From: Vicinamibacteraceae bacterium
GTDB lineage: Bacteria > Acidobacteriota > Thermoanaerobaculia > Multivoradales > Multivoraceae
Assembly (NCBI GenBank): GCA_012270995.1
Contig: JAAXHG010000051.1
Coordinates: 5,768-69,767 of the forward strand
Direction: 5' to 3'
DNA length: 64,000 nucleotides
Shown: positions 27,735 through 44,939 of the stretch, piece by piece
Position numbering within the stretch: the first letter of the stretch is position 1
Layout of the letters: each line of letters starts with the position of its first letter
The notes under the pieces: model-generated
What the model was told of the DNA's origin: nothing
The model's input: the letters and a program-made list of their open reading frames with translations, nothing else
The model's database searches: none
Made by a program: the position numbers and the translations under genes

Positions 27735-30629
27735 CTACTCCTCGGCGACCTCGACCCGCACGCGATCGACCAGGTTCAGATCTTCCAGGGCCTGCCTCAG
27801 TTCGCGGGCCAGGGCTTCCGCGTCGATTCCGTCGGTCGTGGCGTCCAGCGCAACGTTCGCCCTGAGGTCTCGAACCGACCCGGTCCGCAGCTTCGGCAGC
27901 AACCGCGTCCCGACGCGGTTCCATGCCTCGGGGGGAATCTCGCCGCGCACGCTCAGGCGCGCCGCGCGGGGCCGAGCCTCGGGGCCCGGCCGCCGCGGCG
28001 CCGCTTCGTCCTCGGACGACGTCTCGTCGGTGGGCGATTCGGCGGTTCCGCCGAACGTGTCTTCGAGCTCCTGGTCCATCGCCGCGTCATCGTTCGCCTT
28101 CAAACGCTCCGCGGCGTCCTTCCGAAGCAGGCAGAGGTCCGGCTCGAACATGACCTCCTCGGCGGGCAGCCGTTCCCGATGCCAGACCCGCCGCGGCGAT
28201 CCGTCCGCGTTCGCTCCGACTCCCGAGGCCAGCCCGAACTCGCCGGCTTCGACCCACTCGACGACCTTGCCGCGCAGCACCTCGTCCGGGTCGACGAGTC
28301 GCGTCAGCGAGCCGTCGAGGAAGCACTTCCGCAGCATCGCGAGCGGCCAGACGCCGCTCGCGGCGTGAGCCGGAGGCCAGTTTCGCTCCAGATAGCCGGC
28401 GCCGACCGAGTCGTTCAGCAGGGCGTTCGACTTGAGCGCCGCCACGACTCGGCCTGACAGGCTGGAGGCGCTGCTCGAATGGCCGGCGCCCAGGTCGATC
28501 ACGGCGAGACCGTCGGGCGTGCCGCCGTCGGCGTAGACGACGAAGCGGAAGTCGCCCCAGACTTCCTCTCTTGCCGCGTCTTCGGCCTGGCGCACGCGGC
28601 TGGCGACGTCCGCTCGCTCCGACGCCTCGATCTCGGCGCCCAGGGCGCCGGCCTCGATCTCGGCCGCCACGCGCTTCCAGGCGAGCCATTCCTCGACCTT
28701 GTCGCGCAGACCGCGGCCCGGCTTCTTTACCGCCCAGACCAGGGCGCCGGGATAGAGACGGGCGGAGTCGCCGCGCGAGCGGGTCCAGCGGGCGATCCGC
28801 TCCCGCACCTTGCCGTCCCGGTCGCCGGACCACTCCTCCTCCGGCGACGCGACGACCAGCGTGAGCCGCGGCGAGTCCGGCACGGCCGCGCCGTCCGTCG
28901 GGAAGTACACCCGGGGGATTCCCGCGCCGCGGTCGAACCCCGCCTTCACGAGTTGGCGGATCGCGGGGCGGATCTCGTCCTCTTCGTCGAGCGCCGCCCG
29001 CCGGTCGCTCACGACCTTGCGGATCGTCGGCTGGTAGTGAAGCCGGAAGCCGTCGCCGCCGATCTTGCGCACGAAGTACGCCCGCCGCTCGAGCTCCAGG
29101 GCGGCGCTGTCGATGGACGTCGTGTCGACGTTCGGCTCGCCGAGGGCGAACCGGAGCTCCGGCAGGCGCGCCACCTTGTCCACCTGGCCGCCGGAGGACT
29201 CGAACAGCAGGGCCGTGCCGACGCGCCGGTGAATCGAGCGCAGCGGTCCCTTCGTGTCCCGGTCCAGGCCTCGGGCGTGCGCCTGCGGACCCGCGATGTC
29301 CGCGTCGATCGCCGTAGCGAGTTTCTGCTCGCCGAGCTGGCCGAGCACGACGCCGACGAAGTCCCGGTCGTGGAGCGGAGCGGACCCGAGCGTGATCAGG
29401 GGTTCGGTGCGAGCCTGCCGGAAGCCGTTCCGCTGCGCCCAGGAGATCCACTGCGCGAGCATGGCGAGCGTTCCGCGCGTTTGCTGAAACTGCGCCAGCG
29501 CGTTCCACTTGCGCTGGAAGACGGAGAGCGTGGCCGGGTGGAACGGGTAGCACGCTTCGAATCGCGCTCGCAGGTGCTCGCGGGCCTTCTTCTCCGTGGC
29601 GGCGCTGTCCACCAGCGTCCATTCCGGCGGCAGGCGGTCGCGGCGCTCGAAGCACCAGTCCGCGTAGGCCTTCGAGACTCGCTTCCGGATTCTCTCCGGC
29701 CCCTCCGAGTCGAACAGGCGCCGCCGAACCACTTCGCTGACTTCCGCCTCGTCGTTCGCGATCAGGTCCTTCGCGACGCGGCGGACCACCTTGCCGAGCT
29801 TCTCTTGCCACCGCAGATCGAAATCCGTCATCTCCACCTGGCTTCGGGGCAGGCTGATCACGGCGGCGCCGCGGGTCGAGCCGGTCATCGCCACGGTCAG
29901 GTTCTGGATGAAGGCGTGGAACGAGTCCGCCATTCCGCGGTGGCGGTTCACGAAGTTCAGCACTTCGTCGAACAGCACGAGCACGGGCGCCCCGGCGGCC
30001 TCGAACACGCGGCCGAGCGCTTCGGTCCCGGGGGGCGTGGTGGCCGCGGCGGGTCCGAGCCGCGCCGCGCCCTCGGCGCCGGCAAGCTGGCGGGCGACGT
30101 CGATCCACGGCGTCTCCCGCCCATGGCCCGGGTCCCAGGCGTTGCCGACGAAGACCGCGATCCGCGCGGCCGGCGCTTCGCGCAGCCCGGCCTCCCGCAG
30201 CAGGTCCCGCACCTCCGGGAGGCTCGCGACCTTCTTCGAGGACTGGACGAGGTAATAGAGCGCGGTCAGGGTGTGCGTCTTGCCGCCGCCGAACTGGGTG
30301 ACCAGGGTCATCACCGGGGCGGCGTTCGCCGTCTCGCCGGAGAGCCTCCGCAGCACCATCCCCGCGTGATCCTTGAGCGCCCGCGTGAAGCAGGTGCGGG
30401 CGAAGAAGGCCTCCGGATCGCTGTAGTCCTCCGGCGCCGTGCCGGCGACCACCTGCTCGAGCGCGATGGCGAACTCGTCGGGATGGAACGACCGTCCCTG
30501 CCGGACTTCCCGTCGCGGCTGGGCGACCTTGTACCAGGGTTCGAGGGTCATGAAACTCAGCGTCTCCTTGCCGGGCGTTTCATCGGTTTCCTCGGGCGCA
30601 GAGGCTGCGGTTCCCGAGGAGTCGATCAT
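27735..30629 (-). CDS. DUF499-type P-loop ATPase (defence-island core component)
   Basis: N-terminal LEPWYKVAQPRREV...FHPDEFAIALEQV, Walker A TQFGGGKTH and Walker B VLVLFDEVLNF, as I recall for DUF499 proteins. The alternative start at ATG 30551 (MTLEPWYKV) would remove the 50-nt overlap with the upstream PIN-like gene. Confidence 0.8.
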   Translation of the reverse strand: MIDSSGTAASAPEETDETPGKETLSFMTLEPWYKVAQPRREVRQGRSFHPDEFAIALEQVVAGTAPEDYSDPEAFFARTCFTRALKDHAGMVLRRLSGETANAAPVMTLVTQFGGGKTHTLTALYYLVQSSKKVASLPEVRDLLREAGLREAPAARIAVFVGNAWDPGHGRETPWIDVARQLAGAEGAARLGPAAATTPPGTEALGRVFEAAGAPVLVLFDEVLNFVNRHRGMADSFHAFIQNLTVAMTGSTRGAAVISLPRSQVEMTDFDLRWQEKLGKVVRRVAKDLIANDEAEVSEVVRRRLFDSEGPERIRKRVSKAYADWCFERRDRLPPEWTLVDSAATEKKAREHLRARFEACYPFHPATLSVFQRKWNALAQFQQTRGTLAMLAQWISWAQRNGFRQARTEPLITLGSAPLHDRDFVGVVLGQLGEQKLATAIDADIAGPQAHARGLDRDTKGPLRSIHRRVGTALLFESSGGQVDKVARLPELRFALGEPNVDTTSIDSAALELERRAYFVRKIGGDGFRLHYQPTIRKVVSDRRAALDEEDEIRPAIRQLVKAGFDRGAGIPRVYFPTDGAAVPDSPRLTLVVASPEEEWSGDRDGKVRERIARWTRSRGDSARLYPGALVWAVKKPGRGLRDKVEEWLAWKRVAAEIEAGALGAEIEASERADVASRVRQAEDAAREEVWGDFRFVVYADGGTPDGLAVIDLGAGHSSSASSLSGRVVAALKSNALLNDSVGAGYLERNWPPAHAASGVWPLAMLRKCFLDGSLTRLVDPDEVLRGKVVEWVEAGEFGLASGVGANADGSPRRVWHRERLPAEEVMFEPDLCLLRKDAAERLKANDDAAMDQELEDTFGGTAESPTDETSSEDEAAPRRPGPEARPRAARLSVRGEIPPEAWNRVGTRLLPKLRTGSVRDLRANVALDATTDGIDAEALARELRQALEDLNLVDRVRVEVAEE

Positions 30630-44500: not shown

Positions 44501-44939
44501 ACTGGAGCTCGCGCATCAGCAGGCCGGCCATGATCGTCTTGCCGGCGCCGGCGTCGTCGGCGAGCAGGAAGCGCACGCGCGCCGGCTTGAGCAGGTGGTC
44601 GTACACGGCTTCGAGCTGGTGGGGCAGCGGGTCGACTCGAGAAACCGAGAGCCCGAAGTATGGGTCGAACCGCCATGCGATGCCGAGCGCGTGGGCGTCG
44701 AGGCCGAGCCGGAGCAGTTCGCCGTCGCCGTAGAAGCCGAAAGCCGTTGCGCTGGTCTTGAGGGCGGCGAGTTGCCGGGCTTCGAGGGAGACCCGCGTGA
44801 AGCGCTGCGTCCTCGTGCCGACGAGACCGACGTTCCAGCCGCCGGAACCGTTCGGCGCCACGGTCTCGACCCGCATCGGTTCGCTGAACAGCGGTCCCGT
44901 CAGGACCTGGCCTTCCTCGGGCGGCGCGGGCTGGTTCAT
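41520..44939 (-). CDS. SNF2-family helicase with C-terminal DUF3883-like PD-(D/E)xK nuclease domain
   Basis: Motif I [35 protein letters not shown]. Helicase-C GEGINLQ...[22 protein letters not shown]. C-terminal GYDVTSLD...LRLIEVKG...YWLYVV. The longest ORF reaches 45116 but would overlap the divergent small gene, so ATG 44939 ([10 protein letters not shown]) is preferred. Confidence 0.85.
   Translation of the reverse strand: [1139 protein letters not shown]

What the first reader, a model, noticed from the sequence alone, without database searches (positions are those of the whole stretch)
27735..44939. 17-kb defence island: helicase / DUF1156-type methylase / DUF499-type ATPase core split by nested defence modules
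Twelve co-directional minus-strand genes carry no housekeeping content. The core trio is as follows.
- An SNF2 helicase with a C-terminal PD-(D/E)xK-like (DUF3883-like) domain (41520..44939).
- A 1055-aa methyltransferase with a DUF1156-type N-terminus, FxGxG and DPPY motifs (34339..37506).
- A 964-aa DUF499-like P-loop protein (27735..30629).

This trio was predicted from comparative genomics as an RM-like defence system. To my recollection it is catalogued as a helicase-methylase-ATPase ('Hma') type, and I know of little mechanistic characterisation.

The unusual point here is that the trio is interrupted twice. The layout is: helicase | DUF262-HNH-AlbA2 + HEPN-MNT-HEPN | small protein + methylase | ATPase-Toprim + ATPase/PIN | DUF499 ATPase. 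At least four additional effector modules therefore sit inside what looks like one transcription unit. This suggests a layered or co-regulated composite system rather than a chance neighbourhood.
Basis: partly seen in the sequence, partly recalled or inferred. Interest (0 to 1): 0.8.

Follow-up and report, generated by a model that had tools for sequence, protein, structure and literature searches.

The report
Hma defence system with embedded modules
This is a real anti-phage locus of the known helicase-methylase-ATPase (Hma) type carrying several smaller defence modules between its three core genes, but that nested layout is already published as the usual state of Hma systems, so the locus is a good example and not a discovery.

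Summary
Profile HMMs identify 41520..44939 as HmaA, 34339..37506 as HmaB and 27735..30551 as HmaC (PADLOC E 5e-174, 6e-104, 2e-94). All lie on the minus strand, between housekeeping genes.

Between them sit:
- a BrxU/GmrSD-like enzyme fused to AlbA_2;
- HEPN-MNT-HEPN;
- an orphan 216-aa gene;
- an OLD/GajA-like ATPase-TOPRIM gene;
- an ABC ATPase + PIN pair.

Corrections:
- The "ATPase" and the following 90-aa ORF are one gene broken by a 1-nt frameshift, so there are 11 genes, not 12.
- hmaC starts at 30551.
- The HNH motif is not confirmed by a model.

The interruption is not unusual. Published surveys report embedded genes in 62.7% and 66.5% of Hma systems. In the relatives fetched here, 52 of 62 and 61 of 71 measurable slots are occupied. 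The window's modules recur elsewhere in other slots, orders and combinations, so they behave as autonomous cassettes.

Syntenic relatives carry the same locus without the HEPN/MNT and ATPase cassettes. The junctions follow gene boundaries and show no transposon signatures.

Verdict: a new member of a known kind, with low-to-moderate interest.

The parts
41520..44939 (-). hmaA: Snf2-family helicase with a C-terminal NOV_C / PD-(D/E)xK nuclease domain (1139 aa)
   Evidence: PADLOC HmaA E 4.6e-174. Pfam Helicase_C 1.2e-22, SNF2-rel_dom 4.7e-15, NOV_C 1.4e-20. Motifs GAGKT, [17 protein letters not shown], D...IEVKG. The ATG at 44939 and a TACAAT element 13 nt upstream are conserved in L039 and L002.
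39351..41456 (-). Embedded module 1: GmrSD/BrxU-like type IV restriction protein (DUF262 + His-Me-finger-like region) fused to a C-terminal AlbA_2 (Schlafen-like) domain, 701 aa
   Evidence: Pfam GmrSD_N 1.4e-30 and SLFN_AlbA_2 2.6e-16. PADLOC HEC-05 2.6e-39. PDB BrxU 7p9k E 1.9e-14. DGQQR motif present. Nine full-length homologues (59-75% identity) are embedded in other Hma loci, in either slot.
38923..39354 (-). Embedded module 2a: HEPN1 (143 aa), an extra HEPN paralogue upstream of the MNT gene
   Evidence: Pfam HEPN 5e-21. Its GTG overlaps the GmrSD stop codon (GTGA). Aligned with HEPN2 and HEPNs of other loci.
38597..38926 (-). Embedded module 2b: minimal nucleotidyltransferase (MNT), 109 aa
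   Evidence: Pfam NTP_transf_2 4.6e-10 and Polbeta 2e-8. GSx10DxD motif LFGSAARGEMGPHSDVDL. NCBIfam MntA antitoxin E 1.5e-7, below the cut-off.
38218..38607 (-). Embedded module 2c: HEPN2 (129 aa), the canonical partner downstream of MNT
   Evidence: Pfam HEPN 3.8e-25. The MNT-then-HEPN order recurs in L009, L054, L050, L017, L032, L037 and L049.
37571..38221 (-). p216: orphan gene of unknown function directly upstream of hmaB
   Evidence: No Pfam, PADLOC or NCBIfam hit. Only 16 protein clusters found in 5.8 billion sequences. AlphaFold model pLDDT 73, two domains, no PDB fold match. The homologues whose context was checked (L002, L039, L086/L087; 68-77% identity) lie in the same syntenic Hma locus; the distant ones (34-42%) do not.
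34339..37506 (-). hmaB: DUF1156-type DNA methyltransferase (1055 aa) with a variable insert after motif I
   Evidence: PADLOC HmaB 5.8e-104. Pfam DUF1156 9.9e-23. Motif I VVDPFAGGGS and motif IV FTDPPYYD. Variable region at about nt 800-1000 of the gene.
34228..34338 (-). AT-rich hmaB | ATPase-TOPRIM spacer with a repeated CCAACATTKCAA motif; candidate internal promoter or operator
   Evidence: 49% GC against 69% for the island. The motif occurs twice here and nowhere else in the window, against 0.05 expected. The spacer is not conserved upstream of homologous genes in other loci.
32776..34227 (-). Embedded module 3, 5' part: OLD/GajA-like ABC ATPase-TOPRIM gene, truncated at 483 aa by a frameshift
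   Evidence: Pfam AAA_21 1.5e-26 and AAA_15 3e-23. Motifs GPNNSGKST, LLDEPD, IYVEGETDE, LLDGDD, YEVENYLL. The model of the full-length homologue P0017 best matches GajA 8u7i (E 4.4e-12) and OLD 6p74 (E 9.5e-11). Homologues are 550-580 aa.
32523..32795 (-). Embedded module 3, 3' part: the '90-aa ORF', which is the out-of-frame C-terminal end of the ATPase-TOPRIM gene
   Evidence: This segment is in the same frame as, and continuous with, the ATPase in L015, L025, L026, L045 and L076. The frameshift lies in a CGCCGCCGC run near 32810-32822. The same truncated ORF is found on 5 contigs.
31059..32396 (-). Embedded module 4a: ABC ATPase (445 aa), NsnB / HEC-03-like
   Evidence: Pfam AAA_15 5.5e-21 and AAA_21 2.1e-19. 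PADLOC NsnB 4.8e-44, PDC-M55A 5.2e-31, HEC-03B 1.7e-29. Always followed by the PIN gene in L003, L009, L014, L024, L026, L060 and L076.
30580..31053 (-). Embedded module 4b: PIN-like protein (157 aa), presumed RNase effector of module 4
   Evidence: Pfam PIN E 6.8e-4, 20.7 bits, below the 23.6 cut-off. The family profile's top PDB hit is VapC 7by2, E 0.1. D6, E45, D90, N108 and D115 are invariant in 8 homologues.
27735..30551 (-). hmaC: DUF499 AAA+ ATPase (938 aa from the ATG at 30551), without the N-terminal HEPN seen in many relatives
   Evidence: PADLOC HmaC 2.2e-94, with model position 1 at residue 27 of the long ORF. Pfam DUF499 6.2e-11. AAGGAG lies upstream of 30551. The start aligns with L039 and L002. 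Motifs GGGKT and VLVLFDEV.
27454..27701 (+). Downstream copy of a direct repeat of about 250 nt that brackets the island; it carries a small 67-aa gene (27500..27703)
   Evidence: the repeat finder families D1, D2 and D20: 83-84% identity, spacing about 17.58 kb. Alignment.
45019..45310 (+). Upstream copy of the bracketing repeat; it carries a 78-aa paralogue (45076..45312) and lies in an insertion of about 480 nt that is absent from syntenic relatives
   Evidence: Window 44963..45440 has no counterpart in L039 or L002.

Best explanation
The segment is an Hma system, also called a Type-1 BREX-related DUF499-centred system. Its two intergenic slots have been filled by self-contained defence cassettes.

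**Core system (mechanism largely inferred from family knowledge)**
- HmaB, an N6-adenine-type methyltransferase with a variable recognition insert, marks host DNA.
- HmaC, an ORC/STAND-like AAA+ ATPase, recognises or assembles on foreign DNA.
- HmaA, a Snf2 translocase with a PD-(D/E)xK nickase, attacks that DNA.
- Only the HmaA nickase requirement has been shown, and that was in a Halomonas homologue.

**Cassettes add orthogonal layers**
- A BrxU/GmrSD-like enzyme for modified DNA.
- A HEPN RNase held in check by an MNT nucleotidyltransferase.
- An OLD/GajA-like ATPase-TOPRIM nuclease, here frameshifted and possibly crippled.
- An ABC-ATPase sensor with a PIN RNase (HEC-03-like).
- One orphan gene of unknown role.

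The cassettes are autonomous units that move between Hma loci. They are linked to the core by position and, at least in the hmaA-hmaB slot, by co-transcription and translational coupling. They are not linked by obligatory function.

The layout most likely arises by recombination in and around the conserved hma gene ends.
For: **Identity of the core and the modules**
- HMM and motif evidence.
- ATPase-TOPRIM fold.

**Autonomy of the modules**
- The GmrSD-AlbA2 gene occurs in the A|B slot in 7 loci and in the B|C slot in 2 loci.
- MNT-HEPN occurs in either slot.
- ATPase-TOPRIM and ATPase+PIN occur singly, together, and in reversed order (L076, L026).

**Generality**
- 52 of 62 A|B slots and 61 of 71 B|C slots are occupied in relatives from many phyla, including archaea.
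- Eight loci carry as much embedded DNA as the window or more.
- The census of other embedded genes gives OLD, Ppl, YhcG, DUF3644-HEPN, ABC ATPases and toxin-antitoxin pairs.

**Filled versus empty slots**
- L039, L002 and L086 hold the same locus at the same chromosomal site, with only GmrSD and p216 embedded.
- Homology to the window stops at the hmaB stop codon and resumes about four codons into hmaC.
- Similarly, it stops 11 nt after the GmrSD stop and resumes in the first codons of p216.
- There are no target-site duplications or inverted repeats.

**Coupling**
- GTGA overlaps occur at GmrSD/HEPN1, HEPN1/MNT and HEPN2/p216.

**Recombination scars in relatives**
- Partial duplicates of the hmaB 5' end, 86-93% identical to the resident copy, lie upstream of the cassette next to hmaB in L005, L011, L024, L030 and L055; a weaker one (76%) lies in L081.
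- L076 carries hmaA 3' and hmaC 5' fragments.

**Literature**
- bioRxiv 10.1101/2024.01.29.577857, PMC11232893, PMC12839542 and PMC8565338.
Against: - No experiment exists for this locus.
- The self/non-self role of HmaB is unproven. In the one tested homologue, phage grown on an HmaB-overexpressing host behaved no differently (PMC11232893).
- The ATPase-TOPRIM gene is frameshifted, so at least one layer may be dead.
- The HNH and PIN assignments rest on motifs and sub-threshold scores.
- No recombination scar is convincingly present in the window itself. There is only a marginal hmaB-like remnant in the hmaA|GmrSD spacer (tblastn E 0.005, shuffle p 0.017).
- Gain versus loss of the extra cassettes cannot be polarised, because the window is the outgroup to its three syntenic relatives.
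- Promoter and terminator scans gave nothing above chance, so the transcription units are inferred from spacing only.
Confidence: 0.8

Rival explanations
1. The locus is a functionally integrated composite. The embedded modules are guards wired to Hma in the manner of PrrC in EcoprrI: they are kept silent by the Hma complex and released when a phage inhibits it. On this view the stack works as one system.
For: - All genes are co-directional.
- Start/stop overlaps cross module borders.
- The literature proposes exactly this backup logic for embedded ABC-ATPase systems and for BrxU in BREX (PMC12839542).
Against: - The same modules occur with different partners, in either slot, in either order, and without each other.
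- Representatives of HEC-03, HEC-04 and HEC-05 defended E. coli when cloned without Hma.
- Only 0.7% of Septu systems are embedded.
- Syntenic relatives keep an intact Hma without the HEPN/MNT and ATPase modules.
Confidence: 0.12
2. The arrangement is a neutral 'genomic sink'. Hma spacers simply tolerate insertions, the arrangement has no selective meaning, and parts of the locus are decaying.
For: - The ATPase-TOPRIM gene is frameshifted, and the same truncated ORF is seen on 5 contigs.
- Truncated hmaA genes and hma fragments occur in relatives (L004, L050).
- The junctions lack any site-specific signature.
Against: - Embedded content is overwhelmingly defence-related and not random genes or transposases (one search gives 3.1% mobility genes).
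- Embedded genes have the same orientation as the host system in 96.7% of published cases.
- The three core genes and most modules keep intact ORFs and catalytic motifs.
Confidence: 0.2
3. The frameshift in the ATPase-TOPRIM gene is an assembly or sequencing error, and the gene is intact in the organism.
For: - The shift lies in a short GC-rich repeat (CGCCGCCGC).
- All 120 best homologues are full length.
Against: The identical 483-aa truncated product is recorded on 5 contigs. These may, however, derive from the same or related read sets.
Confidence: 0.3

Closest known systems
Hma system (HmaA/HmaB/HmaC; PADLOC, Payne et al. 2021), also called the Type-1 BREX-related (BR) DUF499-centred system (PMC12839542)
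   Same: - The same three proteins in the same order and on the same strand, with strong model matches.
- The helicase carries the C-terminal PD-(D/E)xK (NOV_C) nuclease typical of Type-1.
- The methylase has the DUF1156 N-terminus.
- The ATPase is DUF499.
   Different: - hmaC lacks the N-terminal HEPN fusion reported for many Type-1 members.
- Five genes lie between hmaA and hmaB, more than the three-gene limit used in the published survey, so a default search might not call this locus complete.
Hma-embedded candidate systems HEC-03 (ABC ATPase + PIN), HEC-04 (ATPase-TOPRIM) and HEC-05 (= BrxU) of Payne et al. 2024
   Same: - The same classes of module in the same kind of position.
- The GmrSD-like protein hits HEC-05 models.
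- The second ATPase hits HEC-03B and is always paired with a PIN-like gene.
   Different: - The GmrSD-like protein carries an extra C-terminal AlbA_2 domain and is only distantly related to BrxU (E 1.9e-14).
- The PIN protein hits no PADLOC model.
- The ATPase-TOPRIM protein's best PADLOC hits are NsnB, AriA and GajA, not HEC-04, and it is frameshifted.
BrxU embedded in BREX on pEFER, and PrrC embedded in the EcoprrI type I R-M locus
   Same: A second defence gene nested inside a methylation-based system. It covers what the host system misses (modified DNA) or acts as a backup.
   Different: Functional complementarity or guarding has been demonstrated for those pairs. Nothing has been tested here, and comparative data favour independence.
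PLD-helicase / DUF1156 / DUF499 system (Type-2 BR; NCBIfam NF042962-NF042964)
   Same: Homologous methylase and ATPase.
   Different: - The window's proteins score far below the NCBIfam cut-offs (194 vs 1000 bits and 91 vs 1200 bits).
- The helicase has a C-terminal NOV_C nuclease, not an N-terminal PLD/HKD domain.

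Membership tests
Hma / Type-1 BR system | Snf2-family helicase with a C-terminal PD-(D/E)xK (NOV_C) nuclease (HmaA) | tested here: met
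   PADLOC HmaA 4.6e-174. Pfam SNF2-rel_dom, Helicase_C and NOV_C. Catalytic motifs present.
Hma / Type-1 BR system | DUF1156-type DNA methyltransferase with motif I (FxGxG) and motif IV (DPPY) (HmaB) | tested here: met
   PADLOC HmaB 5.8e-104. Pfam DUF1156 9.9e-23. Motifs FAGGG and DPPY.
Hma / Type-1 BR system | DUF499 AAA+ ATPase (HmaC) | tested here: met
   PADLOC HmaC 2.2e-94. Pfam DUF499 6.2e-11. Walker A and B motifs.
Hma / Type-1 BR system | All three genes on one strand in the order A-B-C | tested here: met
   The same order is found in all related loci in which the three genes could be located.
Hma / Type-1 BR system | At most three other genes between neighbouring hma genes (the search rule of the published survey; a heuristic, not biology) | tested here: not met
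   Five genes lie between hmaA and hmaB, and three (four as called) between hmaB and hmaC. The rule is quoted.
Hma / Type-1 BR system | N-terminal TUDOR domain and internal inactive REase domain in the helicase (PMC12839542) | not tested
   No structure was predicted for HmaA. Pfam gives nothing for residues 1-150.
Hma / Type-1 BR system | Anti-phage activity and host DNA methylation | not testable with these tools
   Needs cloning, plaque assays and methylation-aware sequencing.
PLD-helicase/DUF1156/DUF499 system (Type-2 BR) | N-terminal PLD/HKD nuclease on the helicase, and equivalog-level matches to NF042962-NF042964 | tested here: not met
   No PLD domain in Pfam. NCBIfam scores are 164.6, 193.7 and 90.9 bits against cut-offs of 1100, 1000 and 1200.
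GmrSD / BrxU (HEC-05) type IV restriction enzymes | N-terminal DUF262 domain with the DGQQR NTPase motif | tested here: met
   Pfam GmrSD_N 1.4e-30. LLDGQQRLTSL. BrxU 7p9k E 1.9e-14.
GmrSD / BrxU (HEC-05) type IV restriction enzymes | C-terminal DUF1524 His-Me finger (HNH-like) nuclease with a (D/E)H..P motif | tested here: inconclusive
   No Pfam DUF1524 hit. The PADLOC HEC-05 alignment runs to residue 529. The sequence has ERHYVFP...NAVAN, not DH/EH. The PDB alignment stops at residue 380.
HEPN/MNT (type VII toxin-antitoxin-like) module | MNT with GSx10DxD, followed by a HEPN-domain protein | tested here: met
   Pfam NTP_transf_2 and HEPN. Motif. The MNT-then-HEPN order recurs in relatives. 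An extra upstream HEPN1 is a local peculiarity.
HEPN/MNT (type VII toxin-antitoxin-like) module | Equivalog-level match to the MntA antitoxin; AMPylation of the HEPN toxin | tested here: not met
   NCBIfam MntA_antitoxin scores 31.2 bits against a cut-off of 60. The biochemistry is not testable here.
OLD / GajA-like ABC ATPase-TOPRIM nucleases | ABC ATPase head followed by a TOPRIM domain with a conserved Glu and DxD | tested here: met
   Motifs GPNNSGKST, LLDEPD, YVEGETDE and LLDGDD. The best full-length fold matches are GajA 8u7i and OLD 6p74. Pfam OLD-like_TOPRIM reaches only E 0.2.
OLD / GajA-like ABC ATPase-TOPRIM nucleases | Intact full-length reading frame | tested here: not met
   A frameshift near 32810-32822 splits the gene.
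HEC-03 (ABC ATPase + PIN) | ABC ATPase matching the HEC-03 model, with an adjacent PIN-domain protein | tested here: inconclusive
   - HEC-03B E 1.7e-29 over half the model, but NsnB scores better at 4.8e-44.
- The PIN is below Pfam's cut-off and hits no PADLOC model.
- The pairing is conserved in 7 loci and the acidic residues are invariant.

The most novel reading that the evidence does not exclude
Hma loci may work as integrase-free cassette-exchange platforms. On this reading, the very conserved ends of the hma genes, above all the first ~40 codons of hmaB, act as homology anchors for importing defence cassettes from other Hma loci. Such imports would leave partial hma duplicates as scars. 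The window would then be a heavily stacked product of this process, and its orphan gene p216 would be an undescribed defence gene.
Probability: 0.3. Interest if true: 0.55.

Novelty: new member of a known kind. Interest (0 to 1): 0.27.

Why it matters
As a discovery it matters little, because the system type and its habit of hosting other defence genes are both published.

It has some value as material.
- This lineage offers natural filled and empty versions of the same chromosomal Hma locus (the window against L039, L002 and L086). That is a ready-made design for testing whether embedded modules add to, depend on, or are regulated with Hma.
- The hma-fragment scars seen in relatives give a concrete, checkable hypothesis for how embedding happens. 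The published work leaves that question open.
- The 216-aa orphan and the GmrSD-AlbA_2 fusion are candidates for 'guilt-by-embedding' testing.

Tried and rejected
- **Site-specific insertion signatures at cassette borders.** I looked for target-site duplications, inverted repeats and conserved flanking DNA by comparing the window with empty-slot relatives and with other loci carrying the same cassette. None was found. The upstream DNA of the ATPase-TOPRIM gene is not conserved between loci.
- **Promoter and terminator scans of the island.** They gave 0 promoter-like sites, and terminator-like sites were no more frequent than in shuffles. This is uninformative for this high-GC organism.
- **p216 function.** Pfam at E<=1, PADLOC at E<=0.5, NCBIfam, AlphaFold plus Foldseek against PDB (best E 0.4), and the gene context of distant homologues gave no assignment. 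My impression that its N-terminus looks like a DUF4258-type toxin is backed by no tool, so I dropped it.
- **TOPRIM and PIN by sequence profiles against PDB.** TOPRIM gave nothing. PIN gave only VapC at E 0.1.
- **Polarising gain versus loss of the extra cassettes, and looking for recombination tracts, with sliding-window identity.** The window is the outgroup to L039, L002 and L086, and no tract stands out.
- **An hma-fragment scar inside the window's own slots.** There is only a marginal hmaB-like remnant in the hmaA|GmrSD spacer.
- **tRNA or integrase as an integration landmark.** None was found.
- **The idea that GmrSD and the second ATPase form one Menshen-like (NsnA/NsnB) system split by hmaB.** I rejected this because the two occur independently in most loci.

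Full report
**1. What is in the sequence**

The window has about 70% GC, so I called genes by third-position GC and checked them against the gene calls of the source assembly. That source is a 137.8-kb metagenome scaffold.

Between an SSF symporter gene (25839..27320, +) and an M14 peptidase gene (45464..48136, +) lies an uninterrupted run of minus-strand genes from 44939 down to 27735. The window contains no tRNA, and the island contains no integrase.

**2. The core trio**

| Gene | Coordinates | PADLOC | Pfam |
|---|---|---|---|
| hmaA | 41520..44939 | HmaA, E 4.6e-174 | SNF2-rel_dom, Helicase_C, NOV_C |
| hmaB | 34339..37506 | HmaB, E 5.8e-104 | DUF1156 |
| hmaC | 27735..30551 | HmaC, E 2.2e-94 | DUF499 |

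The expected catalytic motifs are all present:
- HmaA has GAGKT, DEAH and [11 protein letters not shown], plus a D...EVK nuclease motif.
- HmaB has FAGGG and DPPY.
- HmaC has GGGKT and LFDE.

NCBIfam's models for the related PLD-helicase/DUF1156/DUF499 system are hit only far below their cut-offs. The locus therefore belongs to the Hma branch and not to that sister branch.

Two start codons can be fixed by comparison with syntenic relatives:
- hmaA starts at the ATG at 44939, with a conserved TACAAT just upstream.
- hmaC starts at the ATG at 30551, preceded by AAGGAG and not at 30629.

**3. The embedded genes**

*Slot A|B (hmaA to hmaB)*
- A 701-aa GmrSD/BrxU-like protein. It has DUF262 with DGQQR, hits PADLOC HEC-05 at 2.6e-39 and BrxU structure 7p9k at E 1.9e-14, and carries an added C-terminal AlbA_2 domain.
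- HEPN1, MNT and HEPN2 (Pfam; GSx10DxD motif in the MNT).
- A 216-aa orphan, p216.

*Slot B|C (hmaB to hmaC)*
- An ABC ATPase with TOPRIM motifs (YVEGETDE, LLDGDD).
- A 445-aa ABC ATPase (NsnB 4.8e-44, HEC-03B 1.7e-29).
- A 157-aa PIN-like protein.

The TOPRIM assignment fails at Pfam level (E 0.2). It is supported by fold instead. A model of a full-length homologue matches Gabija GajA and Thermus OLD best, over about 600-660 aligned columns.

The PIN assignment is below Pfam's threshold. However, the protein family keeps the PIN acidic residues invariant, and its top PDB hit is VapC.

**4. A correction to the gene count**

The 483-aa ATPase-TOPRIM ORF and the following 90-aa ORF are a single reading frame in L015, L025, L026, L045 and L076. 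The 120 best database homologues are nearly all 550-580 aa long.

The window has a 1-nt frameshift in a CGCCGCCGC run near 32810-32822. The same truncated product is recorded on five contigs. The shift may therefore be real, but an assembly artefact is not excluded.

**5. How unusual is the interruption?**

It is not unusual.

*Literature*
- Payne et al. 2021 named Hma.
- Payne et al. 2024 found embedded genes in 62.7% of 1,485 Hma systems. They used 'guilt-by-embedding' to find HEC-01 to HEC-09 and validated seven of them. They also noted that 96.7% of embedded genes share the host system's orientation.
- Liu et al. 2024 showed that HmaA's nickase is required for defence against T4. They found insertions in 66.5% of loci.
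- A 2026 NAR paper reclassifies Hma as a Type-1 BREX-related system. It lists GmrSD, HEPN/MNT, TOPRIM and PIN as auxiliary or backup effectors within such loci.

*My own comparison*
- I fetched 80 loci encoding HmaB relatives (52-83% identity) from many bacterial phyla and from archaea.
- The order A-B-C is constant.
- 52 of 62 measurable A|B slots and 61 of 71 B|C slots are occupied.
- Eight loci carry at least as much embedded DNA as the window's 7.8 kb.

The one respect in which the window goes beyond the published survey is that its A|B slot holds five genes. The survey allowed three.

**6. Are the modules parts of one system?**

Comparative data say that they are autonomous cassettes:
- The GmrSD-AlbA_2 gene is in the A|B slot in seven loci and in the B|C slot in two.
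- MNT-HEPN is found in either slot.
- The ATPase-TOPRIM gene and the ATPase+PIN pair occur alone, together, and in the opposite order (L076, L026).
- p216 occurs only in the closest relatives.

Other embedded families in these loci are again defence-type: OLD, Ppl, YhcG/PDC-S02, DUF3644 HEPN, PDC-M31A ATPases and DUF433/DUF5615 pairs. They are not transposases.

Within the window, module borders in the A|B slot are translationally coupled. GTGA overlaps occur at GmrSD/HEPN1, HEPN1/MNT and HEPN2/p216, which argues for co-transcription there.

In the B|C slot, two features leave room for internal promoters:
- a 111-nt spacer of 49% GC, carrying a motif repeated twice and found nowhere else in the window;
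- a 126-nt spacer.

Consensus promoter and terminator scans were uninformative.

**7. Filled and empty versions of the same locus**

L039 (Acidobacteria MAG), L002 (Thermoanaerobaculia MAG) and L086 carry the Hma locus at the same chromosomal site. Their flanks are 85-90% identical to the window's. Their content is only hmaA-GmrSD-p216-hmaB-hmaC.

Relative to them, the window has two extra blocks:
- HEPN1-MNT-HEPN2 (about 38210..39343);
- the two ATPase modules (about 30553..34338).

Homology breaks exactly at gene boundaries:
- at the hmaB stop codon, resuming about four codons into hmaC;
- 11 nt past the GmrSD stop and within the first codons of p216.

There are no duplications or inverted repeats at these breaks. 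The window is the outgroup to the other three, so gain and loss are equally parsimonious.

**8. A clue to how embedding happens (from relatives, not from the window)**

Several loci carry partial duplicates of hma gene ends inside their slots:
- In L005, L011, L024, L030 and L055, a copy of part of the first 20-42 codons of hmaB lies upstream of the cassette that abuts the intact hmaB. These copies are 86-93% identical in DNA to the resident gene. L081 has a weaker one (76%).
- L076 has an hmaA 3' fragment, and an hmaC 5' fragment in front of its ATPase-TOPRIM gene.

The cassettes between scar and gene are defence genes such as DUF3644 HEPN, OLD and ABC ATPases.

This pattern is what one would expect if cassettes are imported together with a piece of a donor's hma gene, by recombination anchored in the conserved gene end. 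I did not find this point in the parts of the papers I read.

In the window itself there is only a marginal hmaB-like remnant in the hmaA|GmrSD spacer (tblastn E 0.005, shuffle p 0.017).

**9. The orphan p216**

- The family is tiny: 16 clusters among 5.8 billion proteins.
- It has no Pfam, PADLOC or NCBIfam match.
- The model (pLDDT 73) shows two domains joined by a disordered linker, with no PDB fold match.
- The close homologues whose context I checked (L002, L039, L086/L087) sit in this same syntenic Hma locus. Two distant ones (34-42% identity) sit in unrelated, non-defence contexts.
- Its function stays unknown.

**10. Mechanism, with status of each step**

*Shown elsewhere*
- HmaA homologues need both helicase and nickase activities to defend against T4.
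- HEC-03, HEC-04 and HEC-05 representatives defend on their own.

*Inferred from family knowledge*
- HmaB marks self DNA.
- HmaC senses or assembles on foreign DNA.
- The GmrSD-like enzyme targets modified DNA that escapes a methylation-based system.
- MNT restrains the HEPN RNase until infection.
- The ABC ATPases sense infection and license their TOPRIM or PIN nucleases.

*Unknown*
- Whether any module talks to Hma.
- Whether the frameshifted gene works.
- What p216 does.

**11. Verdict**

It is a new member of a known kind. Interest is low to moderate, mainly as a natural filled-versus-empty comparison and as a pointer to a recombination route for embedding.

Noticed in passing
window 27454-27701 and 45019-45310 (third, diverged copy at 25363-25554): The whole island is bracketed by a direct repeat of about 250-290 nt (83-84% identity, about 17.58 kb apart). 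Each copy carries a small plus-strand gene (67 aa and 78 aa; coiled-coil plus a hydrophobic tail; no family hit). Each copy sits in an indel of about 400-480 nt that is present or absent among syntenic relatives. The repeats could mediate loss of the island by homologous recombination.
   Followed up: partly
window ~32810-32822 (genes 32776..34227 and 32523..32795): A 1-nt frameshift in a CGCCGCCGC run splits an OLD/GajA-like ATPase-TOPRIM gene. The gene is intact (about 560 aa) in all close homologues. The same truncated ORF is recorded on 5 contigs.
   Followed up: yes
window 34228-34338: The spacer between hmaB and the ATPase-TOPRIM gene is AT-rich (49% GC). It has four CAACAT(T) repeats, including two CCAACATTKCAA copies 21 nt apart that occur nowhere else in the window. 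This is a possible operator or promoter. No regulator gene is evident in the island.
   Followed up: partly
L005 7685-7747; L011 6488-6613; L024 7835-7894; L030 10001-10102; L055 10001-10105; L081 7897-7965; L076 8875-9063 and 14884-14970: Partial duplicates ('scars') of hmaB 5', hmaA 3' and hmaC 5' ends lie inside the slots of related Hma loci, next to embedded cassettes. Five of the six hmaB 5' scars are 86-93% identical in DNA to the resident gene; L081's is 76%. This suggests cassette import by recombination anchored in the hma genes.
   Followed up: partly
window 41457-41519: The 63-nt hmaA|GmrSD spacer translates in one frame to AREDAVRHGH..W, which resembles HmaB residues 28-44 (AREKSIRHGHPSTLHLW). 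This may be a degenerate hmaB 5' scar, but it is statistically marginal (tblastn E 0.005, shuffle p 0.017).
   Followed up: yes
related loci, e.g. L034 12283-13260, L013 12997-13971, L077 2829-3803: An ORF of about 325 aa immediately upstream of hmaC is the commonest embedded family (24 of 71 loci). It has no PADLOC hit and only a faint HSDR_N (PD-(D/E)xK) similarity (E 0.0015-0.16). It is absent from the window.
   Followed up: partly
L086 16583-17175 (syntenic relative): In this relative, a HigB/HigA toxin-antitoxin pair occupies the position just downstream of hmaC, where the window has the small repeat gene. This flank is therefore also variable.
   Followed up: no
window ~36500-36750 (hmaB codons ~255-335): hmaB carries a low-complexity, Ala/Pro-rich insert in the region that is not alignable among close relatives (10-29% identity in that block). 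This is consistent with a variable target-recognition insert.
   Followed up: no
window 38923-39354 versus 38218-38607: The HEPN-MNT-HEPN arrangement contains two HEPN paralogues. Related loci have only MNT followed by HEPN. HEPN1 has an N-terminal extension of 12 residues or more in the alignment, and its first codons match a mini-ORF present at the empty site in L039.
   Followed up: partly
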